64,000 nucleotides of DNA. Origin: Escherichia phage vB_Eco_F26. Under the pieces are notes generated by a model. It was not told the DNA's origin and searched no databases. It worked only from the letters and a program-made list of their open reading frames with translations. The first letter of the stretch is position 1; the number at the start of each line of letters is the position of its first letter. The position numbers and the translations under genes are program-made. The DNA is taken from the sequence record OP870145.1; one strand, 5' to 3'. Positions 13,431-25,644 of this stretch are shown here, in pieces.

Positions 13431-13965
13431 CATACGCCTGGAATGCATCGTATACGTCTTTTTCTGTTTTAGATTGAGCATAATTCAACGCATCAGCGAT
13501 TTGCCATTTTTCTGCATCCTCAATATGTTTTGCATAGGTGCGTTTAACATAAGGAGAAAGTACTTTATCTACATTCGCAAAAGTCGTTCCGCCGTATTGG
13601 TGAGAAGCAACCTGTGCAGTAATTTGTGCCATAATTGCAGTAGCAACACCGATTGATTTAGGAGTTTCAATCTGTGCATTACCGAGCTTAAATCCGTTCT
13701 CAAGCATTCCTTTTAAATCTACTAAACAGCAATTAGTAAAAGGCAATGATATACTGTAATCTAAATCATGAAAATGAATTAATCCAACATTATGGGCATT
13801 TACAATATGACTTGGAAGAATACGACAAGCGATATGTTTAGAAACAATACCGGCCATTAAATCTCTTTTTGTTGGAAAGACGCGAGAATCTTTGTTGGCG
13901 TTTTCTGTATTTAATTCTTTATCTTTATTTGAAATAAAATTTAAAACATCTTTCTCTAAAGACAT
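13430..13965 (-). CDS. nrdD: NrdD exon 1 (N-terminal ~175 aa); 3' boundary approximate
   Basis: Open frame upstream of intron; sum of the two segments about equals the ~605 aa recalled for T4 NrdD. Confidence 0.8.
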
Positions 13966-14777
13966 AATTCTAATTTATCCTTTTGAAATTCTTCGTCTAA
14001 ATATGGGTTCCAACCCATTTTAAACCTTTTGATGAAATTATCAATTCTAAATTTCGGTAAGTTTAAATCCGCAAAAATAGATGATTTACTTTTAAAATCT
14101 GGACCTAAATAATCATATAAAATTTCTGCGTATTTTAACCATAATATATAAGTACCAGATTTAATTGCTCTCGGAGTTTTCCAAGGTTTTACACCATACA
14201 TCGGATTTCCACTTCCTTTATGCCTGATAGAAGATGAAATTCCAATTTTAATTTTAGCTTCCTTTGTGTGCGAAAATCCATGATGCGGATTTTCTTTCCA
14301 GTATTTTTTAGAAGCTTCTGATATTTTCTTTCTGGCTAAATTAGTATGATGCTTTCCATAAAATCCATGATTTTTACCTTTATTACGATTTCTTTTAATC
14401 ATGGTTATTGATTGCTTTTCTCTAGTTTCTTTAGAAGGAGAAATACCATACGTTGTAAATTGACCGTTAGCATATGCTAAATTGAAATACTCTTTATTCC
14501 ATATATCTTTTTCTATATTCTTTTGAAATTCAGCTTCAATGCTAGTTATTTGTTCATCTCCGACTAATTGAAAATATAATATTTCAACTTTCGGCGTTTC
14601 TTTCAATAGAGCTTTTTGAAATTCAGAAGATGACGAAGACGAATAATAAAATTTACCATTTTTATCAATAATATTCGTTCCATCAAAAGTGCAATTAGTT
14701 TTACTTCCAATGTAATAATATGGCGGGGTTTTAGCATTAATTCTATTAATAAATGATAGTTTATATACTACATTCAT
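13956..14777 (-). CDS. GIY-YIG homing-endonuclease-like protein (free-standing, between 49 and nrdD)
   Basis: 273 aa; VYKLSFINRINAKTPPYYYIGSKTN GIY-YIG module; repeated G-x-x-HG-like modules. Confidence 0.65.
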   Translation of the reverse strand: MNVVYKLSFINRINAKTPPYYYIGSKTNCTFDGTNIIDKNGKFYYSSSSSSEFQKALLKETPKVEILYFQLVGDEQITSIEAEFQKNIEKDIWNKEYFNLAYANGQFTTYGISPSKETREKQSITMIKRNRNKGKNHGFYGKHHTNLARKKISEASKKYWKENPHHGFSHTKEAKIKIGISSSIRHKGSGNPMYGVKPWKTPRAIKSGTYILWLKYAEILYDYLGPDFKSKSSIFADLNLPKFRIDNFIKRFKMGWNPYLDEEFQKDKLELCL

Positions 14778-16879: not shown

Positions 16880-17137
16880 TTATTCCTTAATTCCTAGTAC
16901 TTGTTTAAAAGTCTCGTCGTAATCAAGACTTTGGCCCGTTTGTTCTTTATGTTTGTATATAATATCACTTACTTCTAATAGCATATTTTTATATGAACGA
17001 GTTAAAGCAGATTTAAGCACGCTGTATCTATCAGGAAATTTACCATGTTCATTATAATAAGCTATTGCTAATTCACGGACTGCCTTTTCAGCAGTCTCCA
17101 TATATTCTTTACGCTTGGCCATTTTCTTCTCTCTCAA
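16880..17137 (-). CDS. Hypothetical small protein
   Basis: 85-aa ORF. Confidence 0.45.
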
Positions 17138-17426
17138 ATCGGTGTTTGCAATGACGACATTTATAACGAAGAATACTAGTCTGCCAATGAATCAATTGAA
17201 CCTGTTCAGTACCACATTTTGGGCAGTTCGGAACATTCTTAGAAGCCCTTTCGCGGCGTTCAACCATAACCATAATGGCATCCCAAGCAGGAGGTTTAAA
17301 GTCTAAATCGTCACAACCATGAATCTTTCCACGCATTTCCAGATCGTCTTCTTCACCAGCCATAATAATTTTAATTAGACTAGAATTACTTGAAGCTACA
17401 ATGTCTTCTAATAGACGCTTTTTCAT
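17109..17426 (-). CDS. Small zinc-ribbon protein
   Basis: 105 aa; CPKCG...18 aa...CRHCKH four-Cys ribbon. Confidence 0.45.
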
Positions 17427-18352
17427 TTCAATACCTCAATAGCATTACGTAAACCATTTGCTTTTGCATTAAGAGCTTTTAACAGTTTGGTGTGTTCGGC
17501 AATCTGGGCTTCAACTTCAATCAAACGAGCATTGAGATATTCACGTTCTTCACTCAGGTTATCAACCTTTTCTACTTTAGGTTCTTTTACAACTTGCTTA
17601 TATGTATTAGGGTTCTTCAGTTTAATTAGAATGCGTGAACTGTACAGCATTGAACCATTATCTTCGGTTTCGTCATACATTTCCACTACGTCCATCATCT
17701 CCACCATCGTGCAGAGTTTATAAGACAACGAACGAATAATTTTGTTGTGCTTATTAATTTCTCTAGCTGTCATGGTGCCGAGATTACGTGAGTAATAATA
17801 AGGAACCTGGATATTAATTAATACTGATGAACCACCTGGCTTGTGTGTTACTTCATCAGCAATAACCCAATCCTTAACATGAACTGTATTTGTACGGTCA
17901 TCGCCCGCGGTAAATAGTTTACGAGCATGCTTAAAAAGCATATTCACTTGGTCATTGAATTGACAAGCGAATTTATCAGCAAATTTAGTTTCGGGAATGG
18001 TAGATAACCAATCAGTCAAATGGGTCTTTTTAACATCGTTAACAATAGTAAATTCAACCAAATCGGTTATAGATGTCTCAGATTTAATGAAGCTCGGCTT
18101 CATAAAGTTTTTAATGTTATCACTAGCTACAGTAGAAGATAACAGACGAGAACGTTTAAACCATTGAAGCAAATTGCCTAACGAATGAGAATAAGCGTTT
18201 TGAGTATCTTTACAGATATGATTTTCCTGGCCAACATATTGAAGGAAATCACGAAGAATATTATTGATTACTGCCCTGTGTCCTATCTGATAATTACGAT
18301 GTTTAGTAATAAGACTGTCAAAATAATCAATATAATGTTTACGAGTTTTCAT
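17423..18352 (-). CDS. Hypothetical protein, member of a four-gene tandem paralog family with C-terminal coiled coil
   Basis: 309 aa; N-terminus MKTRKHY...; C-terminal heptad-like region ([42 protein letters not shown]). Confidence 0.5.
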   Translation of the reverse strand: MKTRKHYIDYFDSLITKHRNYQIGHRAVINNILRDFLQYVGQENHICKDTQNAYSHSLGNLLQWFKRSRLLSSTVASDNIKNFMKPSFIKSETSITDLVEFTIVNDVKKTHLTDWLSTIPETKFADKFACQFNDQVNMLFKHARKLFTAGDDRTNTVHVKDWVIADEVTHKPGGSSVLINIQVPYYYSRNLGTMTAREINKHNKIIRSLSYKLCTMVEMMDVVEMYDETEDNGSMLYSSRILIKLKNPNTYKQVVKEPKVEKVDNLSEEREYLNARLIEVEAQIAEHTKLLKALNAKANGLRNAIEVLK

Positions 18353-18404
18353 GTTCTTCTCACTTTGTTAATGATTTGTACTCCGAGCCATCCTTGGCTT
18401 TAAA

Positions 18405-19436
18405 TTACTTAATTAACTGTAAAGCTTGTTCTAGATGATCAAGACGATTAACGGATTCTTCCCAAATCTTTTTAGCCTGCTCATATTCTTTCTGCGCTTT
18501 ATTAGAAATTTCTAGAACTTCCTTATAAGCTTTTTCTAATGCAATAACTTCTGGACGAATTTCTACCGGTTCAGGTGAATCATCAAGACATTCCATTAGT
18601 TCCTCAAGGGTAGTTTCTTCTTTAGGAGTATTCACAATTTCATCACATTTTTGTTGGTAAATTTCTTTATCAGTCGGTGAGTACGCGCACTTTACTTCAC
18701 GAAGACTAATTACAATTTTATATCCTTCCCAACCGCATATATTCTTAAAAGGATAAGTATGAATATTTTCTACTGTTTCCATACAAAGTAATGCGGTCTC
18801 TAATTGACGAGTTATAGTGCTAGCAATTGAGAAAAATTTATTAATATTCTTTTGGTTAGTTTCTGGTGTAAAAAATCCATAATTCACAAAAATAGCTACT
18901 TTATTTTTATCAAGCTCATATTCTTTTACGATAATCATATCAGAAGCCAAAGGATGAATTTGACGATAATTGCCATAACATAATTTAGAAGCTGATTTTA
19001 GAATTTGTCCTTTGAAAAGTCTGAAATTACTAATCCAACGACGAGTAAAAATATTCTCAGGGTCTTCTTTATTATTAAGATGATAAGAATTAACATCACC
19101 GAACCAATTATATCCTACTACATCTTTAGTTCGTTTAATTTCTTTCCCAAATTTACCAAGAATATCTCTGTTGACTAAGTATGAAAGAAGACGAGACCCT
19201 TTAAAGGTTTTCTTAATGTCATCTTTATCTGTACGACTAGAAATTTCACGAACTTCGTGAATAAATCTGCTGGAAGAAACAATGCTTACATCAATATTAT
19301 TGAGCCATTGATTGATAATAGAAAGAACACTATTCTGACTAGACTTAGGTTTAACTTTATCATCAATAACACTGTTGAATGATTTGATATATTCGTTACG
19401 AGTCATATTAATCTCCTCAGTAGAAAGTAAGAACAT
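18405..19436 (-). CDS. Hypothetical protein, tandem paralog family member
   Basis: 343 aa; likely true start at internal MTRNEYIKSF; C-terminal coiled coil. Confidence 0.5.
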   Translation of the reverse strand: MFLLSTEEINMTRNEYIKSFNSVIDDKVKPKSSQNSVLSIINQWLNNIDVSIVSSSRFIHEVREISSRTDKDDIKKTFKGSRLLSYLVNRDILGKFGKEIKRTKDVVGYNWFGDVNSYHLNNKEDPENIFTRRWISNFRLFKGQILKSASKLCYGNYRQIHPLASDMIIVKEYELDKNKVAIFVNYGFFTPETNQKNINKFFSIASTITRQLETALLCMETVENIHTYPFKNICGWEGYKIVISLREVKCAYSPTDKEIYQQKCDEIVNTPKEETTLEELMECLDDSPEPVEIRPEVIALEKAYKEVLEISNKAQKEYEQAKKIWEESVNRLDHLEQALQLIK

Positions 19437-19464
19437 TATACCACATCCTTGTGGTAAAGTAAAC
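19435..19464 (-). promoter_or_regulatory. Early promoter: -35 GTTTAC, 18-nt spacer, -10 TATAAT
   Basis: Minus strand GTTTACtttaccacaaggatgtggTATAAT, 25 nt upstream of the ORF starting at 19436. Confidence 0.55.
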
Positions 19465-20492
19465 TAGTTCAGTGCATTTAGTGCATTGTTCAGTTTAGAA
19501 CGTTGCTTCGTGAGATTTTTGACTTTTTCTTGAGCTTTTTCTAGCATCTTTTCAGCTTCTAGCACTTCATTAGTTGCTTTAACGAGTTCATCATCTACTG
19601 CCTTGATAGACTTCTCAATCGCATCGGCATGCCATTTTTCAACAGGTTTAAGACTCGGATTTTCAACAGGAAGAAAATTCACTTTATTGAATTTCCATGC
19701 ATCCTTATTACCTGAACTATACATCCAAAATTTAGGATCGTTTGATGAGTAATTGGATAAATTTAAATTTAAGTTATCTTGCACTTCTTGCTTTTTCTCT
19801 TGCGGGACTTCGTCCTTTCTCAAAAAATCGTATTTAAATGAAACGATCATATCAAGTTCATATGATGTTGTATCTAACTTAAATCGTTCAAAACGAGGTA
19901 AAATCTTAGATTGAACAGCAGCAACAACATCCATATATTTAAATGCTTCTGTCAACTGTGATTTAAGGCATTCACAAATTGAAAGAGAATTTTTTGTATT
20001 AGGTTTAAAGCTAATTCGTGCAGTTCTATTATTTTCTTTTAATGGTCTTACTTCCATCTGAAGAGTATAACCATCAAATTTCAGGTTCTTTAAGTTAATG
20101 TCAGAACCTTTTAATCGACTAGCCGTCGACAAAATTTGCTTTAATTGTTTACGGAATAGAGCAATAAATCTCCATTCAATACGATAATGATTTGGATTGA
20201 AAAATCCAGATGATAAATCGACCTTACTCTGACCAACACCTTGAACAAACAGAGGATTTTTATAATCAATAGTTTTACAAAAATCGGTGAGCTGCTCACG
20301 GGCCGTCATTTGTGTAATATACCCTGCTTTACTAAAATTACGCACCCATTCACTGCTATTCGTATACTTAAAGTGATGAATAACACGATTAACTTTATCA
20401 GGGTCTAAATTATTTTCACACAAAAATGTCATAACATCACGAGTATAGCTGGCATTACGAACCATATCTTCAATTTGAGAACGAGTTTTCAT
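19464..20492 (-). CDS. Hypothetical protein, tandem paralog family member
   Basis: 342 aa; N-terminus MKTRSQIEDM; C-terminal coiled coil. Confidence 0.5.
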   Translation of the reverse strand: MKTRSQIEDMVRNASYTRDVMTFLCENNLDPDKVNRVIHHFKYTNSSEWVRNFSKAGYITQMTAREQLTDFCKTIDYKNPLFVQGVGQSKVDLSSGFFNPNHYRIEWRFIALFRKQLKQILSTASRLKGSDINLKNLKFDGYTLQMEVRPLKENNRTARISFKPNTKNSLSICECLKSQLTEAFKYMDVVAAVQSKILPRFERFKLDTTSYELDMIVSFKYDFLRKDEVPQEKKQEVQDNLNLNLSNYSSNDPKFWMYSSGNKDAWKFNKVNFLPVENPSLKPVEKWHADAIEKSIKAVDDELVKATNEVLEAEKMLEKAQEKVKNLTKQRSKLNNALNALN

Positions 20493-20500
20493 GGTATTCC

Positions 20501-21409
20501 TTAAGATTTAAGTAAATCAACGATTTTAATTAACTTTTCACGCTCAGATTTAGCTTTACTACTCAATCCAGATAGTCTGAAAATTTCATCGTCATATTGT
20601 TGAATAGAAATATTCAGCTCTTCAATTTGCTTATTAAAATAATCAATTTGTTCAGAATGTTTTTCGTTACTACGAACTGGTACAGGTTTTGTAGGCAATT
20701 TAGTTGAACTGGATTCATCCGGGCGATAAATTAAAATACAACTTGAACCAATAGGGCATTTTGCACCAGATGAATATTCTAATGTTCCAGCTTCTTTTAA
20801 AACTTCAAAAGCCAAACAGAGATGATGCCCCATATTAACATAATCTGTAGAGCGAGCTCTGACGTAATAATCATCGCCGCGAATACTAAATTTAAAGCAT
20901 TTAAGGTCTTCTGTATTATTGGTCTTAAAAATCATTTGTTTATCTAGACCTTTAGCTAATCGAGCGCCTAATGCTAATAATCGTCGTTGATTTTCCCACA
21001 AATCTGCGATCATTTGGTCAAATGATAATTTCGGCATTAGTCGACCGTAAAGATCATAGCCTTTATTATAATTGCGAAGAATTTCACTTGCATTAATATG
21101 AGACAACGCTCCAATTTTATTAAGGGCTTTCATGATGCGATTAGATAAAAGCATTCCAGATCCGTTTGTTCGTTGTAAATGTTTTTCTAATCCAAATCCA
21201 ATATCAACTTTAAACTTATCTAAAATTTCGGCGTGAACATCTTTATCAATAACATTTAAATTTAGTACTGGGTTAAATTTATGAAAAAATTTATCTGACT
21301 CGTCGCGTTGAAGTACAGTCCATTCATTTGATTTTTTATTAACTAAAGATTTAATTACTGCATTGACATTATTAATTGCTACTGACATATTTTCCTCACT
21401 CAATTTCAA
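20501..21409 (-). CDS. Hypothetical protein, tandem paralog family member (most divergent)
   Basis: 302 aa; C-terminal coiled coil. Confidence 0.45.
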   Translation of the reverse strand: MKLSEENMSVAINNVNAVIKSLVNKKSNEWTVLQRDESDKFFHKFNPVLNLNVIDKDVHAEILDKFKVDIGFGLEKHLQRTNGSGMLLSNRIMKALNKIGALSHINASEILRNYNKGYDLYGRLMPKLSFDQMIADLWENQRRLLALGARLAKGLDKQMIFKTNNTEDLKCFKFSIRGDDYYVRARSTDYVNMGHHLCLAFEVLKEAGTLEYSSGAKCPIGSSCILIYRPDESSSTKLPTKPVPVRSNEKHSEQIDYFNKQIEELNISIQQYDDEIFRLSGLSSKAKSEREKLIKIVDLLKS

Positions 21410-21858: not shown

Positions 21859-22386
21859 TTATGCGAGTACCGTCTTTAACCGTTCTTCAAACTTCCGAAG
21901 AGTATTTTGGCGTTCAGCTCTTTGCTTTTTGTAAGTTTCAATACGCTCTGAAATGAGAGTGTATCGTTCATTTACTGATTCTTTCATAAAATCAGGAATT
22001 TCACGAGAAGCTTTAATCTCGTCAAATTTATCAATAACAGCTTGCTCTTCAGCAATTAAGTTATCATACATCAAAATATCTTTCTTGATGAACTCAATAT
22101 CTTCTTGAGTTACACGAGATAATTTAGATGCTTTATCCTTTTTGTACTGTTCGTTAGTATCACGAGACCAGTGTAATGTACGATTTTTATTCGTATTCTT
22201 GTAAATTTCTACAATACCAATCTCATCAATAATAACGATCCAATTCCAACGGGATTTGTAAATTTGTCCTCCATCAACAGTGATTTCACCTCCGATTGAG
22301 ATGTCATTAAAGAACTTGCTTTGTGCTTCAGATTTAAATTTACCATCGTTGTAATTTACCAAGTTGAAAATATCTTTAGCGTTCAT
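21859..22386 (-). CDS. Hypothetical protein
   Basis: 175-aa ORF downstream of an early promoter. Confidence 0.5.
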   Translation of the reverse strand: MNAKDIFNLVNYNDGKFKSEAQSKFFNDISIGGEITVDGGQIYKSRWNWIVIIDEIGIVEIYKNTNKNRTLHWSRDTNEQYKKDKASKLSRVTQEDIEFIKKDILMYDNLIAEEQAVIDKFDEIKASREIPDFMKESVNERYTLISERIETYKKQRAERQNTLRKFEERLKTVLA

Positions 22387-22831: not shown

Positions 22832-23551
22832 TTAGGATTCTTCTAAATGTCTTTTCTGAAAAGTTGATACCATACTACGATACGGTTCATTTGGATATCC
22901 GTGTTTTATAGCTTCCTTTGTAAATTTTCTCCATCCATATTTAGTTTCTTTCCAAAGCTCGAATAATTCATCTTCATACTGCCATATAGTTAAATGAGAA
23001 CGCTTTGCAGCTTTAATTCCATTAATATGCTTTTCTTTTACTGTAGGATTGCTTAGTTTCTTTTTAATAATATTACTAACTTTTCTAACAAAAACTGGGT
23101 CCTTATATCGTTGCGAAGTTTTTATTGAAGTGTTTAATTTAGCTTCCGGCGTGGATGTGACCTCTTTCATCTTTTTCTTCATATGCTGTATATGATTAGG
23201 ATTTTTCCATAAATTTATAGAATGCTTTTTGCATTTTATCCTAGTTTCATCTGCAACCTTTCCTCCTTCACCCCCGTATGACAGGTTAACACAGTTTTTT
23301 CCATATTTCAATTTACCTGCCATGATATATAATATTTCAGCTTGTACCATTTTATCATAATTATCAAAAACTTCTAAAACCGTTTTTGATAATATGTGGT
23401 CATTTGACACTTTTACACGTTCTATATAATTTCCACTACCAACATACGAATCATTGATGTTATTAGTTATATGTCGACCATAATAGTATTTCTTAATACC
23501 TGTCTTTAAATTTAATATTTCAGTTTTATAGATAGTAAAATATTTTTTCAT
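22832..23551 (-). CDS. GIY-YIG homing-endonuclease-like protein (free-standing)
   Basis: 239 aa; YFTIYKTEILNLKTGIKKYYYGRH...GSG GIY-YIG module; basic C-terminus. Confidence 0.6.
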   Translation of the reverse strand: MKKYFTIYKTEILNLKTGIKKYYYGRHITNNINDSYVGSGNYIERVKVSNDHILSKTVLEVFDNYDKMVQAEILYIMAGKLKYGKNCVNLSYGGEGGKVADETRIKCKKHSINLWKNPNHIQHMKKKMKEVTSTPEAKLNTSIKTSQRYKDPVFVRKVSNIIKKKLSNPTVKEKHINGIKAAKRSHLTIWQYEDELFELWKETKYGWRKFTKEAIKHGYPNEPYRSMVSTFQKRHLEES

Positions 23552-24528
23552 TTTAATAATACCGTTTCAGCAATTTCTTCCCAATGGTTTTTGTCGGTCA
23601 TAATAAAGTCAGCAAGATAAAGAGCAGTACGCAGTGAAACATTGCGTAAACGATTAACATTGACTTTCATCCATGATAATGCTTTATAAGTTTCTTCATC
23701 AGAAAGACCGCGCTTTTGCATCATGTCAGTTGAAAGAATAACATCTTCAACCCTGACCATAATTTCTTCATTAGTGTGAACACCCAAATCCAAATAAACT
23801 GAGCGGGACACTAATGCTTGTAAATGTGGAGCAAGTTTAGTACCACGGTCTAATTCGCGGTCAATATCAACGTTTGTGATAAAAACAATCGTTCCTTTAA
23901 ATTCAAACTCACGCTCAATGCCTTTTTCTTCTAAGTAAGAAGATGCAGTGCTCCAGCAGACTTTACGGGTCTCTCCAGTGTCCAGAGCAGCTTTCAGAAG
24001 ATTAAGAATGTCCATATCAGAGAAAACATCCACATCATCAATCAAAAGGACAGAATTCTCTTCACGATTATTCCAAAGCTGTTCATAAAGACCGATACCA
24101 GAGATTTTACCATTAATGCTTTTATACTCAATGTATCCAATATCATTTGCTTTATTCAAAGCTTTATCTAAAGAATACGTTTTACCAATACCTGCCGCAC
24201 CAGAGATAATTAATGAACGAATGTTTCCGTTAATAATACCATTCGTCATCATTCCCATAACATTAAATCTTTTATTAATGCGGGTTTTCATATCTTCATA
24301 TGATTCTTTAACTTCTTCAACTTTTACACCATCATATGAAATGTCTGATTTGTAAACCCAAACACCGCGACGCTTACCGTCAATTTCAACAAAAACTTTA
24401 CCATCTCCTTGTGCATCTACCGGAGCATTATCTGGGAACCATTCGCCTAAGAGCTCAAAAGTTCCAGAGATTTCTTTACCGAAGTAGATACCCTTATTGA
24501 TAGTTACAGTTTTCATTTTATTCTCCAA
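23548..24528 (-). CDS. AAA+/P-loop ATPase
   Basis: 326 aa; Walker A GAAGIGKT, Walker B LLIDDVD. Confidence 0.6.
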   Translation of the reverse strand: MENKMKTVTINKGIYFGKEISGTFELLGEWFPDNAPVDAQGDGKVFVEIDGKRRGVWVYKSDISYDGVKVEEVKESYEDMKTRINKRFNVMGMMTNGIINGNIRSLIISGAAGIGKTYSLDKALNKANDIGYIEYKSINGKISGIGLYEQLWNNREENSVLLIDDVDVFSDMDILNLLKAALDTGETRKVCWSTASSYLEEKGIEREFEFKGTIVFITNVDIDRELDRGTKLAPHLQALVSRSVYLDLGVHTNEEIMVRVEDVILSTDMMQKRGLSDEETYKALSWMKVNVNRLRNVSLRTALYLADFIMTDKNHWEEIAETVLLK

Positions 24529-24630: not shown

Positions 24631-25644
24631 TCATTTATAATAACTTCGGTGGTTTTCAAGATAGACCTTCTCAAGGAAGTCATCCCAGAAACTCATGTCT
24701 ACTTTTTGTTGCATACCATTCTTAGAAGCTTCAGTAGATGCTGCTTCTACTTGATCGACCACATCTTCCAAAAACTCTTGAACTGTTTTAAATGGATGTT
24801 TACCCAACTTCACGTCGAGAATAAATGGAGCATCTTGGAGTGGATAAATCAAGTCGCCAGTTTTGTAAATTTCCAATAGTTGAAGTCCACCACGACAAGC
24901 ATGACTTAGTGCTTTCCAGTCAATACCTTCATTGGCTTCGGCCTTACGAGCGCGTTCACCATATTCAGCATCTAATTTGTTCAGTGACTGCTTAAGCTCA
25001 ATAAGAGAAAGAGTTGTCTGATATTTACGACCCAACACAGTGTAGAACGTTTGTGGGCCTGTTTTCTCATGATTATGGAACACCCATTCACAGAATTCGT
25101 TTTCTGGAAGACGATGCTTAATATCTTCAACTTTAGTACGACGCTGCTTAATGGAACCGTCTTCTTGGTAATCAACCCATTGCTCGGGGATTTGATTAAC
25201 TACTTTCAATACATCGCGTAATGCAGCCAAACGAGAACCCTTGACACCGTATTTAGAAGCTTGCTTGCGGACATATCCTAAATAGGATTTCATGTTAGTC
25301 GTATAAAAACGAGAACGGTTGTCTTGAATAAACTTCCACACATCAGGCAAATCGGATTTAACCACTAGTTCAGGTGGAGTGTGAAGCATATCCAACGCTA
25401 CAGTTTCACCATCTGCTGCTAATTTAAAGAAATACTTAAGACTGTATAGTTCATGGTCAATATCATCTTTAGTGTTTTTAGATGATGTGTTGTTAGTGTT
25501 TTTACTCATGTGCTCTTTGACATTTCCGATAAGAATATCGCGAGCAGGAGGAACAAAGATTTCTTTAAAATCTACATCAGATTCTGGGGTAGAAGTTCCA
25601 TAAAGATGACTACCAAAATAGCTTTTCATTACTGTTTTCATCAT
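24631..25644 (-). CDS. Predicted nucleotidyltransferase-fold protein (Pol-beta superfamily)
   Basis: 337 aa; N-terminal GS-x-LYGT-x5-SDVD motif typical of the NTase fold. Confidence 0.5.
   Translation of the reverse strand: MMKTVMKSYFGSHLYGTSTPESDVDFKEIFVPPARDILIGNVKEHMSKNTNNTSSKNTKDDIDHELYSLKYFFKLAADGETVALDMLHTPPELVVKSDLPDVWKFIQDNRSRFYTTNMKSYLGYVRKQASKYGVKGSRLAALRDVLKVVNQIPEQWVDYQEDGSIKQRRTKVEDIKHRLPENEFCEWVFHNHEKTGPQTFYTVLGRKYQTTLSLIELKQSLNKLDAEYGERARKAEANEGIDWKALSHACRGGLQLLEIYKTGDLIYPLQDAPFILDVKLGKHPFKTVQEFLEDVVDQVEAASTEASKNGMQQKVDMSFWDDFLEKVYLENHRSYYK

What the first reader, a model, noticed from the sequence alone, without database searches (positions are those of the whole stretch)
17423..21409. 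Four consecutive paralogous genes (~300-340 aa) with conserved N-termini and C-terminal coiled coils
ORFs 17423-18352, 18405-19436, 19464-20492 and 20501-21409 share an MKTR-type N-terminus (three of four) and each ends in a ~45-residue heptad-like region, with divergent central parts. A tandemly diversified family in the nrdC accessory region suggests a specificity-diversified function such as a host-target binder or exclusion/anti-defence module. I cannot assign a fold.
Basis: seen in the sequence. Interest (0 to 1): 0.5.

Follow-up and report, generated by a model that had tools for sequence, protein, structure and literature searches.

The report
Four diverged anti-defence-family paralogs in T4-like phage
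These four neighbouring genes are nrdC.3 to nrdC.6 of a T4-like phage; they are very diverged copies of one phage-only protein family, and one copy (NrdC.5) is already known to switch off a bacterial immune protein, so the other three are good candidates for undiscovered immune inhibitors.

Summary
The window is a Tequatrovirus (T4-like coliphage). The four minus-strand ORFs are nrdC.3, nrdC.4, nrdC.5 and nrdC.6.

Plain BLASTP links only nrdC.3 and nrdC.4 (E 1e-6). Profiles link the rest:
- nrdC.4 to nrdC.5: E 1e-6 over 246 collinear columns.
- A merged nrdC.3/4/5 profile to nrdC.6: E 1.4e-6 over the N-terminal half. Shuffled controls scored at most 24, against 52-54 for the real profiles.
- A single-copy protein in an Enterobacter phage matches both profiles.
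- A confident AlphaFold2 model of nrdC.4 (pLDDT 85) finds nrdC.3 and nrdC.6 relatives, and about 15 other proteins from T4-like phages, by fold. It finds nothing in the PDB.

Each protein has a helical N-terminal bundle, an alpha/beta core that is the most variable part, a linker and a roughly 50-residue C-terminal heptad helix.

The anti-defence reading is partly supported. T4 NrdC.5, 96% identical to the window's copy, is published as counteracting the Dsr1 NADase. Neighbouring nrdC.1 (anti-Septu) and the nrdC.8 ortholog (anti-Druantia III) make this region an anti-defence island. Targets of nrdC.3, nrdC.4 and nrdC.6 are unknown.

The genes are known. The new parts are the four-way paralogy and the family's spread across T4-like phages (Straboviridae).

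The parts
17423..18352 (-). nrdC.3 (309 aa), paralog 1. The window carries the non-T4 allele, only 60% identical to T4 nrdC.3.
   Evidence: ORF. phrog_1435 at 1.8e-115. 60% identity to T4 and 75% to RB69 nrdC.3. Allele bands across 653 phage records.
18405..19406 (-). nrdC.4 (333 aa from the likely true start ATG 19406; the mechanical ORF runs to 19436), paralog 2.
   Evidence: phrog_1435 at 1.9e-165 from residue 11. Many orthologs are 332-333 aa. SD GAGGAG before ATG 19406. AF2 model with pLDDT 85.5.
19464..20492 (-). nrdC.5 (342 aa), paralog 3. Ortholog of the published T4 anti-Dsr1 protein.
   Evidence: Pfam DUF7235 at 427 bits against a cut-off of 30. 96% identity to T4 NrdC.5. PMC9391042. 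HHalign to the nrdC.4 profile: E 1.1e-6 over 246 columns.
20501..21388 (-). nrdC.6 (295 aa from the likely true start ATG 21388; the mechanical ORF starts at TTG 21409), paralog 4 and the most diverged.
   Evidence: phrog_2257 from residue 8. Most close orthologs are 295-296 aa. Merged nrdC.3/4/5 profile against the nrdC.6 profile: E 1.4e-6. The nrdC.4 model hits JS10 nrdC.6 by Foldseek at E 5e-5. Bridging protein of phage IME523.
19435..19463 (-). T4-early-type promoter-like element (TTTACT-17-TATAAT with an extended TG) in the nrdC.5/nrdC.4 gap.
   Evidence: The scan as a whole was not above chance (28 sites against 27 expected), so this is a consensus match read in context, not proof of function.
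17426..17560 (-). C-terminal heptad (coiled-coil-type) helix of nrdC.3.
   Evidence: a/d hydrophobic fraction 0.83-0.86 against 0.29-0.33 elsewhere. It is among the best-conserved parts of the protein between the 60%-identical alleles.
18408..18554 (-). C-terminal heptad helix of nrdC.4 (residues 285-333).
   Evidence: AF2 helix 285-332 after a low-confidence linker at 276-282. Heptad analysis.
19467..19637 (-). C-terminal heptad helix of nrdC.5 (residues 286-342).
   Evidence: The only confident part of the nrdC.5 model, pLDDT 82-91. a/d hydrophobic fraction 0.92-0.94.
20504..20653 (-). C-terminal heptad helix of nrdC.6 (about residues 246-295).
   Evidence: Heptad analysis. Aligns with the coil of the IME523 bridging protein.
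19149..19205 (-). Conserved block 1 in nrdC.4 (FKGSRLLSYLVNRDILGKF). Equivalents: nrdC.3 18104-18160, nrdC.5 20280-20336, nrdC.6 21068-21124.
   Evidence: Invariant F/S/R/L columns in the nrdC.3+nrdC.4 alignment. Aligned in the HHalign matches. Coordinates.
18960..19007 (-). Conserved block 2 in nrdC.4 (QILKSASKLCYGNYRQ). Equivalents: nrdC.3 17891-17941, nrdC.5 20091-20138, nrdC.6 20933-20983.
   Evidence: HHalign alignments. Coordinates.

Best explanation
The four genes are nrdC.3, nrdC.4, nrdC.5 and nrdC.6 of a Tequatrovirus. They are old, strongly diverged tandem duplicates of one protein family found only in T4-like phages (Straboviridae).

Each protein has:
- an N-terminal helical bundle;
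- an alpha/beta core, which is the most variable part;
- a short Pro/Lys/Glu-rich linker;
- a roughly 50-residue amphipathic C-terminal helix that most likely drives oligomerisation.

They are non-essential accessory proteins. T4 nrdC.5 is described as an early gene, and an early-type promoter match precedes nrdC.4.

The most likely mechanism is stoichiometric inhibition of host immune proteins. The variable core would bind a particular defence protein, and the coiled coil would supply multivalency. NrdC.5 neutralises the Dsr1 SIR2-TPR NADase. As an early gene product it would be present before Dsr1's reported trigger, the capsid protein, a late product in T4 biology (general knowledge), accumulates. 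nrdC.3, nrdC.4 and nrdC.6 would do the same for other, still unidentified defence proteins.

Shown here: gene identity, paralogy, architecture, distribution and faster evolution than neighbouring genes.
Shown in the literature: the anti-Dsr1 activity of T4 NrdC.5.
Inferred: direct binding, oligomerisation, and distinct targets for the other three.
For: Identity: the region is 87-100% covered at 91-96% DNA identity in hundreds of Tequatrovirus genomes, including T4, T2 and T6. The T4 annotation names nrdC.3 to nrdC.6.

Paralogy:
- nrdC.3-nrdC.4: BLASTP E 1e-6; same PHROG; HHalign probability 98%, E 3e-14.
- nrdC.4-nrdC.5: HHalign probability 91%, E 1.1e-6, 246 collinear columns.
- Merged nrdC.3/4/5 profile against nrdC.6: probability 90%, E 1.4e-6, 103 columns outside the coil.
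- Controls: reversed profiles and 30 column-shuffled profiles scored at most 23.7, against 52-54 for the real ones.
- Bridging proteins: Klebsiella phage Marfa gp080/P0235 matches the nrdC.4 N-terminal part and the nrdC.5 C-terminal part. The single-copy protein of Enterobacter phage IME523 matches the merged profile (E 3e-7) and the nrdC.6 profile (E 5e-7).
- Structure: the nrdC.4 model (pLDDT 85.5, pTM 0.68) finds nrdC.3 (Yersinia phage fPS-65), nrdC.6 (phage JS10, E 5e-5) and about 15 full-length uncharacterised Straboviridae proteins in BFVD, the library of predicted viral structures.

Synteny: family members always lie between nrdC/nrdC.2 and nrdC.8/nrdC.10. There is one copy in Marfa and IME523, two in Acinetobacter phage Acj61, three in RB69 and in loci L007-L015 (which include phages VR20, VR25 and VR26), and four in Tequatrovirus.

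Function:
- T4 nrdC.5 alone restores plating on Dsr1 cells (PMC9391042).
- The Dsr1 sensor is a TPR domain triggered by the major capsid protein (PMC12803255).
- nrdC.1 is reported as anti-Septu. bas37_0203 is reported as anti-Druantia III; it is a 528-nt gene at the position of nrdC.8.
- All four genes are non-essential on K-12.

Evolution: dN/dS is 0.11-0.29 for the four genes, against 0.01-0.06 for gp49, nrdC, nrdC.8, nrdC.10 and nrdC.11. The core is the most variable part and the ends are conserved.

No enzyme signature: no hit reached a family cut-off in Pfam, NCBIfam or PADLOC, apart from nrdC.5's own DUF7235, and no PDB sequence match was meaningful (the few matches are designed helical-repeat proteins).
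Against: - No experiment links nrdC.3, nrdC.4 or nrdC.6 to any defence system. None was among the candidate genes chosen for deletion after the HIDEN-SEQ tests on clinical isolates.
- How NrdC.5 works is unpublished in the library searched. Direct binding to Dsr1 is an inference by analogy.
- Gene-wide dN/dS stays well below 1, so there is no proof of positive selection.
- Oligomerisation through the C-terminal helix was not tested. Only heptad statistics and a monomer model support it.
- The nrdC.5 model itself failed (pLDDT 44), and no model was made for nrdC.3 or nrdC.6. The shared fold for nrdC.5 therefore rests on profiles and matching order of secondary-structure elements.
Confidence: 0.6

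Rival explanations
1. The four paralogs are subunits of one hetero-oligomeric complex held together by their C-terminal helices. They act together on a single task, for example Dsr1 inhibition, rather than each having its own target.
For: All four have a heptad helix in the same register from the C-terminus, with a similar ending (L..A(L/I)..(L/I)K) and a similar Pro-rich linker before it. The coil is among the best-conserved parts within each ortholog group. The genes are adjacent and on the same strand.
Against: - nrdC.5 expressed alone from a plasmid restored plating of the T4 deletion clone on Dsr1 cells (PMC9391042).
- Copy number varies from one to four among related phages, and nrdC.3 and nrdC.4 replace each other between genera. 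An obligate complex would not tolerate this easily.
- Coil sequences differ strongly between paralogs.
- Frameshifted or truncated single members occur in deposited genomes.
Confidence: 0.12
2. Only nrdC.5 is an immune inhibitor. nrdC.3, nrdC.4 and nrdC.6 use the same scaffold for other early host-takeover tasks, binding host housekeeping proteins or nucleic acids. Their variability reflects relaxed constraint on dispensable genes.
For: - No phenotype has been reported for them. They are non-essential on K-12 and were not among the candidates chosen for deletion after the clinical-isolate tests.
- dN/dS of 0.1-0.3 fits relaxed purifying selection.
- Pseudogenised, fused or duplicated copies occur in deposited genomes.
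- Three of the four are basic proteins, pI about 9.
Against: - The genes are retained, mostly intact, in hundreds of genomes and across several genera.
- They sit between three genes with reported anti-defence roles.
- The pattern of conserved ends and a variable core, and the two deeply diverged nrdC.3 alleles within one genus, look like target-driven diversification.
Confidence: 0.2
3. nrdC.6 is not a true paralog. It only shares a convergent C-terminal coiled coil and a similar size with the other three.
For: Pairwise BLASTP and family-to-family HHalign of nrdC.6 against nrdC.3, nrdC.4 or nrdC.5 alone are not significant, with P from 0.005 to 0.04. nrdC.6 lacks the (K)TR N-terminal motif.
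Against: - The merged nrdC.3/4/5 profile matches nrdC.6 at E 1.4e-6 over 103 columns in the N-terminal half, not the coil. Shuffled controls were far lower.
- The IME523 protein matches both profiles at about E 5e-7, including the NWRMILTLGSRLCVG..FKT block.
- The nrdC.4 model aligns with the JS10 nrdC.6 model at Foldseek E 5e-5, probability 1.0.
Confidence: 0.07

Closest known systems
T4 NrdC.5 (Pfam DUF7235, PF23882), reported to counteract Dsr1 (Srikant, Guegler and Laub, eLife 2022; PMC9391042)
   Same: The window's nrdC.5 is its ortholog: 96% identity, full-length DUF7235 match, same genomic position. nrdC.3, nrdC.4 and nrdC.6 are distant paralogs with the same architecture.
   Different: nrdC.3, nrdC.4 and nrdC.6 do not match the DUF7235 model. 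Their close homologs carry separate Pfam families: PF26897 for the nrdC.4 homologs and PF26899 for the nrdC.6 homologs. Their targets are unknown. The paralogy with nrdC.5 was not stated in any paper found in the library searched.
DSAD1, the SPbeta-phage inhibitor of the DSR2 SIR2 NADase
   Same: A functional analogue of NrdC.5: a phage protein that disarms a SIR2-type NAD-depleting defence protein activated by a phage structural protein. DSAD1 works by binding the sensor region, which is the mechanism inferred here.
   Different: No similarity was detected. The PDB sequence search with the nrdC.3+nrdC.4 profile and both PDB fold searches with the nrdC.4 model listed no DSAD1 chain among their matches. 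The host range, phage family and architecture differ, and DSAD1 acts on DSR2, not Dsr1.
T4 internal proteins IPI, IPII and IPIII
   Same: A small T-even family with a shared N-terminal capsid-targeting signal. Members counter different defences: IPI against the type IV restriction system written 'GrmSD' in the preprint (GmrSD), and IPIII against an unknown system in ECOR17.
   Different: The internal proteins are packaged into the head and injected through a capsid-targeting signal. nrdC.5 is described as an early gene, none of the four begins like that signal as far as I recall it (not tested), and all carry a C-terminal coiled coil. There is no sequence relationship.
Anti-defence islands of T-even phages, such as the dmd-tifA-adfA 'anti-TA island' and anti-CRISPR loci
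   Same: Clusters of non-essential accessory genes, each disarming a different host system. The nrdC.1 to nrdC.8 stretch now holds three reported inhibitors (anti-Septu, anti-Dsr1, anti-Druantia III).
   Different: Genes in those islands are generally not described as relatives of one another (general knowledge, not tested here). Here four adjacent island genes are paralogs of a single family.

Membership tests
T4 nrdC.3-nrdC.6 orthologs (Tequatrovirus) | Collinear DNA identity with the T4 nrdC.3-nrdC.6 interval and the same flanking genes (nrdC.2 on one side, nrdC.7 and nrdC.8 on the other) | tested here: met
   Megablast: 629 phage records match, and T4 is 87% covered at 92.7% identity. T4 annotation. 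Protein identities to T4: nrdC.3 60%, nrdC.4 93%, nrdC.5 96%, nrdC.6 94%.
DUF7235 / NrdC.5 family (PF23882) | Score above the Pfam gathering threshold (30 bits) | tested here: met
   nrdC.5 scores 427 bits over 1-342. nrdC.3, nrdC.4 and nrdC.6 gave no DUF7235 hit at E <= 1, so only nrdC.5 is a member at this level.
DUF7235 / NrdC.5 family (PF23882) | Counteracts Dsr1-mediated defence | not testable with these tools
   Shown for T4 nrdC.5 in PMC9391042. For the window's copy it is inferred from 96% identity.
PHROG 1435 (nrdC.3/nrdC.4 group) | Full-length match to the PHROG profile | tested here: met
   nrdC.3 at 1.8e-115 and nrdC.4 at 1.9e-165. nrdC.5 matches phrog_2351 and nrdC.6 matches phrog_2257, which are separate groups.
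Proposed NrdC.3-6 superfamily (Straboviridae) | Homology outside the coiled coil among all four proteins | tested here: met
   HHalign E values of 3e-14, 1.1e-6 and 1.4e-6, with shuffled controls scoring at most 23.7 against 52-54. Bridging proteins. Foldseek hits to nrdC.3 and nrdC.6 models.
Proposed NrdC.3-6 superfamily (Straboviridae) | Same three-dimensional fold in all four proteins | tested here: inconclusive
   Only nrdC.4 gave a confident model. The nrdC.5 model failed at pLDDT 44, although its helix and strand order agrees with nrdC.4 under the HHalign mapping. nrdC.3 and nrdC.6 are supported only through BFVD models of relatives, with TM-scores of 0.3-0.4 that are lowered by the free terminal helix.
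Coiled-coil proteins | Heptad periodicity of hydrophobic residues in a long helix | tested here: met
   a/d hydrophobic fraction 0.75-0.94 against 0.17-0.33 elsewhere. AF2 long helices. Oligomeric state was not tested.
Phage tail terminator / tail completion fold (lambda gpU-like) | Significant structural match of the alpha/beta core | tested here: not met
Known defence or anti-defence profile libraries (PADLOC, NCBIfam) | A match above the curated cut-off | tested here: not met
   Only sub-threshold, coil-driven hits such as DndD, BrxC and PgrA.

The most novel reading that the evidence does not exclude
The NrdC.3-6 family is a modular inhibitor platform: a conserved oligomerising coil carrying an exchangeable binding core. 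Its tandem copies, and the two deeply diverged nrdC.3 alleles, track the diversification of one host sensor superfamily. That superfamily would be the Avs7/Dsr1-type TPR capsid sensors, which are fused to many different effectors. Each paralog would then blind a different clade of capsid-sensing immune receptors. The array would be the phage-side mirror of a host pattern-recognition receptor family.
Probability: 0.15. Interest if true: 0.75.

Novelty: new member of a known kind. Interest (0 to 1): 0.5.

Why it matters
T4 is the best-studied lytic phage, yet most of its accessory genes have no known function. Three of them (nrdC.3, nrdC.4, nrdC.6) turn out to be paralogs of the one protein reported to disarm Dsr1. 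The family occupies the same genomic slot in T4-like phages of Escherichia, Klebsiella, Enterobacter and Acinetobacter, and fold matches extend it to phages of Pectobacterium, Erwinia, Serratia and Yersinia.

This gives a direct experimental handle. Delete or express each paralog and screen it against defence libraries, especially relatives of the Dsr1/Avs7 sensor. It also offers a natural set of scaffold variants for mapping how NrdC.5 recognises its target. Finally, it matters for predicting the host range of therapeutic T4-like phages.

Tried and rejected
- AlphaFold2 of nrdC.5 with its own shallow alignment (22 sequences, nearly all above 80% identical) gave pLDDT 44. Only the terminal helix is usable, so that model was not used for fold search.
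- The afdb50 fold library was unavailable.
- nrdC.8 (175 aa), which also has a heptad-like C-terminus, was tested as a possible fifth member. HHalign probability was 1% or less against every profile, so it was rejected.
- The 256-257 aa ORFs near the single-copy genes of Marfa and IME523, and Acj61p118, were tested and are not members.
- The exhaustive HMM search with the nrdC.3+nrdC.4 profile over 1.84 billion representatives found only 10 proteins, all from the phage family. No cellular homologs are detectable by sequence.
- NCBIfam, PADLOC and the PDB sequence search gave only sub-threshold, coil-driven or designed-repeat hits.
- The promoter and terminator scan over the region was not above chance overall. 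Only the element before nrdC.4 is noted.
- Reading the full HIDEN-SEQ fitness tables for the paralogs was abandoned after one part. The list of follow-up knock-out constructs was used instead.
- Literature searches for nrdC.3, nrdC.4, nrdC.6 and DUF7235 found no functional study.

Full report
WHAT IS THERE

The window has about 33-36% G+C. Between 14 and 26 kb it carries, on the minus strand, the gene order gp49 - pin - 49.x - nrdC - nrdC.1 ... nrdC.11 of T-even phages. Megablast of 17423-21409 finds 629 phage records. 462 of them cover at least 80% of the query, nearly all at 90-97% identity (Escherichia, Shigella and Yersinia Tequatroviruses). T4 itself is 87% covered at 92.7% identity. The T4 record names the four genes nrdC.3, nrdC.4, nrdC.5 and nrdC.6.

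Two starts should be moved.
- nrdC.4 begins at ATG 19406 (MTRNEYI...). A GAGGAG Shine-Dalgarno sits 7 nt upstream. The upstream ATG at 19436 lies inside the -10 hexamer of a T4-early-type promoter match, GTTTACTTT-N17-TATAAT. Many orthologs are 332-333 aa, and the PHROG match starts at residue 11.
- nrdC.6 begins at ATG 21388 rather than TTG 21409.

IS THE SIMILARITY REAL?

Pairwise BLASTP supports only nrdC.3-nrdC.4: 25% identity over 226 residues, E 1e-6. nrdC.4-nrdC.5 gives a long collinear alignment that is not significant (24% over 260 residues, E 4). The other pairs show nothing. PHROGs puts nrdC.3 and nrdC.4 in one family (phrog_1435) and nrdC.5 and nrdC.6 in two others. Pfam knows nrdC.5 as DUF7235.

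I built family alignments from database homologs and from ORFs extracted from related loci, then compared profiles.
- nrdC.3 against nrdC.4: probability 98%, E 3e-14.
- nrdC.4 against nrdC.5, after adding the divergent nrdC.5-like genes of RB69 and loci L007-L015: probability 91%, E 1.1e-6, over 246 collinear columns spanning almost the whole proteins.
- nrdC.6 against any single family: not significant.
- nrdC.6 against a merged nrdC.3+4+5 profile: probability 90%, E 1.4e-6, over 103 columns in the N-terminal half. These include the blocks FKGSRLLS..L..F and ILK.A.KL..G.

As controls, I reversed the target profiles and shuffled their columns 30 times. Scores were at most 23.7, against 52-54 for the real profiles.

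Two natural intermediates close the chain.
- The 315-aa protein of Klebsiella phage Marfa (P0235) was one of only 10 hits in an exhaustive HMM search of 1.84 billion representatives. It matches nrdC.4 over its N-terminal 240 residues and nrdC.5 over its C-terminus.
- The single-copy 335-aa protein of Enterobacter phage IME523 matches the merged profile (E 3e-7, 194 columns) and the nrdC.6 profile (E 5e-7, 168 columns). The second match includes the block NWRMILTLGSRLCVG..FKT and the coil.

The similarity is therefore not confined to the coiled coil.

STRUCTURE

AlphaFold2 on nrdC.5 with its shallow alignment failed (pLDDT 44). Only the C-terminal helix 286-341 is confident.

nrdC.4, with 46 sequences that include nrdC.3, gave a good model (pLDDT 85.5, pTM 0.68):
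- a helical bundle (helices between residues 3 and 84);
- an alpha/beta region (strands 88-110, helix 119-140, strands 158-174, helix 185-208, strands 212-235);
- two short helices (246-275);
- a low-confidence linker (276-282);
- one long helix (285-332).

Under the HHalign mapping, the helices and strands of the poor nrdC.5 model fall in the same order.

Foldseek against predicted viral structures (BFVD) gave 19 hits at E <= 1e-3, all from T4-like phages. They include:
- nrdC.4 fragments;
- nrdC.3 of Yersinia phage fPS-65;
- nrdC.6 of phage JS10 (E 5e-5, probability 1.0);
- full-length 300-370 aa uncharacterised proteins of Klebsiella, Enterobacter, Pectobacterium, Erwinia, Serratia, Yersinia and Acinetobacter phages.

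THE TWO ENDS

In the last 42-56 residues of each protein, 75-94% of a/d heptad positions are hydrophobic, against 17-33% of the other positions. The register counted from the C-terminus is the same in all four. Each coil ends in a similar motif:
- nrdC.3: ...LRNAIEVLK
- nrdC.4: ...LEQALQLIK
- nrdC.5: ...LNNALNALN
- nrdC.6: ...LIKIVDLLKS

Each coil is preceded by a Pro-rich linker (KEPKVEK, PEPVEIRPE, LKPVEKW, TKPVPVR). The N-terminal motif (K)TRxx(Y)I is shared by nrdC.3, nrdC.4, nrdC.5 and the Marfa protein. It forms the start of helix 1 in the model, at pLDDT 96. Within each ortholog group, the first 20 residues, block 1 and the coil are the most conserved. The region around residues 160-260 is the most variable.

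DISTRIBUTION AND EVOLUTION

Family members always sit between nrdC/nrdC.2 and nrdC.8/nrdC.10.
- One copy in Klebsiella phage Marfa and Enterobacter phage IME523.
- Two tandem copies in Acinetobacter phage Acj61: p120 and p121, which are the BFVD hits E5E4A1 and E5E4A2.
- Three copies in RB69 (nrdC.6, an nrdC.5-like gene, nrdC.3) and in loci L007-L015, which include phages VR20, VR25 and VR26 (nrdC.6, an nrdC.5-like gene, nrdC.4).
- Four copies in Tequatrovirus.

The array therefore grew by repeated duplication of a single ancestral slot gene.

Among eight Tequatrovirus loci, dN/dS is 0.29 for nrdC.3, 0.19 for nrdC.4, 0.19 for nrdC.5 and 0.11 for nrdC.6. It is 0.01-0.06 for gp49, nrdC, nrdC.8, nrdC.10 and nrdC.11. 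nrdC.3 is dimorphic. The window's allele is 60% identical to T4's but 75% identical to RB69's. In the phage collection, about 360 records carry the window-type allele and about 100 the T4-type.

Decay and rearrangement are common in deposited sequences:
- nrdC.4 is split in phage G8;
- the T4 reference nrdC.6 and the RB69 'nrdC.5' have frameshifts that cut off the coil, which is still readable in another frame;
- there is an in-frame nrdC.5::nrdC.3 fusion (P0056);
- Shigella phage Sf25 has an 83-residue internal duplication in nrdC.6.

FUNCTION

Srikant, Guegler and Laub (eLife 2022, PMC9391042) found that a T4 deletion clone no longer plated on ECOR17. Deleting the host dsr1 gene restored plating. 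Plasmid-borne nrdC.5 alone restored plating on MG1655 carrying dsr1. The window's NrdC.5 is 96% identical to T4's.

A 2026 preprint (PMC12803255) reports that Dsr1 carries a TPR sensor shared with Avs7 and with many other effector fusions. It also reports that the phage major capsid protein triggers it.

The HIDEN-SEQ preprint (10.1101/2025.11.20.689424) reports the following:
- T4 nrdC.1 inhibits Septu.
- bas37_0203 inhibits Druantia III. By position and size this is the nrdC.8 ortholog: a 528-nt gene directly after the nrdC.7 ortholog.
- nrdC.3 to nrdC.6 are 'Non-essential' on K-12.
- None of nrdC.3 to nrdC.6 was among the genes chosen for knock-out after the clinical-isolate screens.

No enzyme or defence-library signature was found in any of the four proteins.

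INTERPRETATION

Best supported: a Straboviridae-specific family of accessory proteins that act as protein inhibitors of host immunity. NrdC.5 is the characterised member, and T4 nrdC.5 is described as an early gene. The variable alpha/beta core is the likely recognition surface, and the conserved coil is the likely oligomerisation module. Made early, NrdC.5 would be present before the capsid protein, a late product in T4 biology (general knowledge), appears.

Direct binding, oligomerisation and separate targets for nrdC.3, nrdC.4 and nrdC.6 are inferences.

Rivals:
- a single hetero-oligomeric complex. This is disfavoured because nrdC.5 works alone and copy number varies between phages;
- non-immune host-takeover roles for the other three. 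This is not excluded;
- nrdC.6 as a non-homolog. This is disfavoured by the profile, bridging and fold evidence.

COMPARISON AND NOVELTY

The genes are long annotated, and one has a published function, so this is not a new system. Two things were not found in the searched literature: that nrdC.3, nrdC.4, nrdC.5 and nrdC.6 form one family, and that the family occupies the same slot across T4-like phages with one to four copies.

Functionally, the nearest analogue is DSAD1 against DSR2. No similarity to it was detected: no DSAD1 chain appeared among the matches listed by the PDB searches. In evolutionary logic, the array resembles the IPI/IPII/IPIII internal proteins and the anti-TA island of T4.

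VERDICT

I classify the finding as new members of a known kind, of moderate interest.

Noticed in passing
window 17109-18352 (nrdC.2 and nrdC.3): This is a hypervariable spot within an otherwise roughly 93-99% conserved region. nrdC.2 is 65-91% and nrdC.3 60-99% identical among eight Tequatrovirus loci. nrdC.3 exists as two deeply diverged alleles. The window's allele is closer to RB69's (75%) than to T4's (60%), which suggests allele exchange between genera or old balanced alleles.
   Followed up: partly
window 13956-14777 and 22832-23551 (minus strand): Two homing-endonuclease-like ORFs flank the island. The first matches NUMOD3, phrog_7504 and phrog_314. The second matches phrog_314. The second sits between nrdC.9 and nrdC.10, where T4 has no gene. 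A 2026 paper (PMC13096335) reports that a homing endonuclease promotes amplification of anti-defence loci.
   Followed up: partly
L001 7064-7300 (T4 NC_000866 nrdC.6) and L002 7949-8400 (RB69 'nrdC.5'): Both reference records carry a frameshift that removes the C-terminal coiled coil from the annotated protein. The coil is intact in another reading frame. The T4 annotation used in the HIDEN-SEQ study lists a full-length 891-nt nrdC.6, so the T4 reference may hold a sequencing error or a strain difference.
   Followed up: partly
P0056 and P0123 (database proteins): P0056 is a natural in-frame fusion of the middle of nrdC.5 to the C-terminal part of nrdC.3, with nrdC.4 deleted and the junction at a shared ..VN.. 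It was seen on 3 contigs (longest about 167 kb). P0123 (Shigella phage Sf25) is an nrdC.6 with an 83-residue internal tandem duplication.
   Followed up: no
window 21859-22386 (nrdC.8) and 16880-17122 (nrdC.1): nrdC.8 (175 aa) also ends in a heptad-like helix but is not related to the four paralogs (HHalign probability 1% or less). By position and size it is the ortholog of bas37_0203, reported as a Druantia III inhibitor. nrdC.1 is reported as a Septu inhibitor. The region therefore reads as an anti-defence island.
   Followed up: partly
window 23548-24516 (nrdC.10) and 24631-25644 (nrdC.11): nrdC.10 gives weak, sub-threshold matches to AAA and STAND-type NTPase models. nrdC.11 matches the RlaP nucleotidyltransferase family (RNA-repair pathway, DNA polymerase beta family). 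Both are conserved next to the island in Acj61, and nrdC.11 also in Marfa. Their roles were not examined.
   Followed up: no
L009 7971-9003 (Escherichia phage vB_EcoM_G8): nrdC.4 is split into two ORFs (193 and 158 aa) in this genome. The 158-aa fragment is the top BFVD hit of the nrdC.4 model. This is another sign that individual paralogs are dispensable in some lineages.
   Followed up: no
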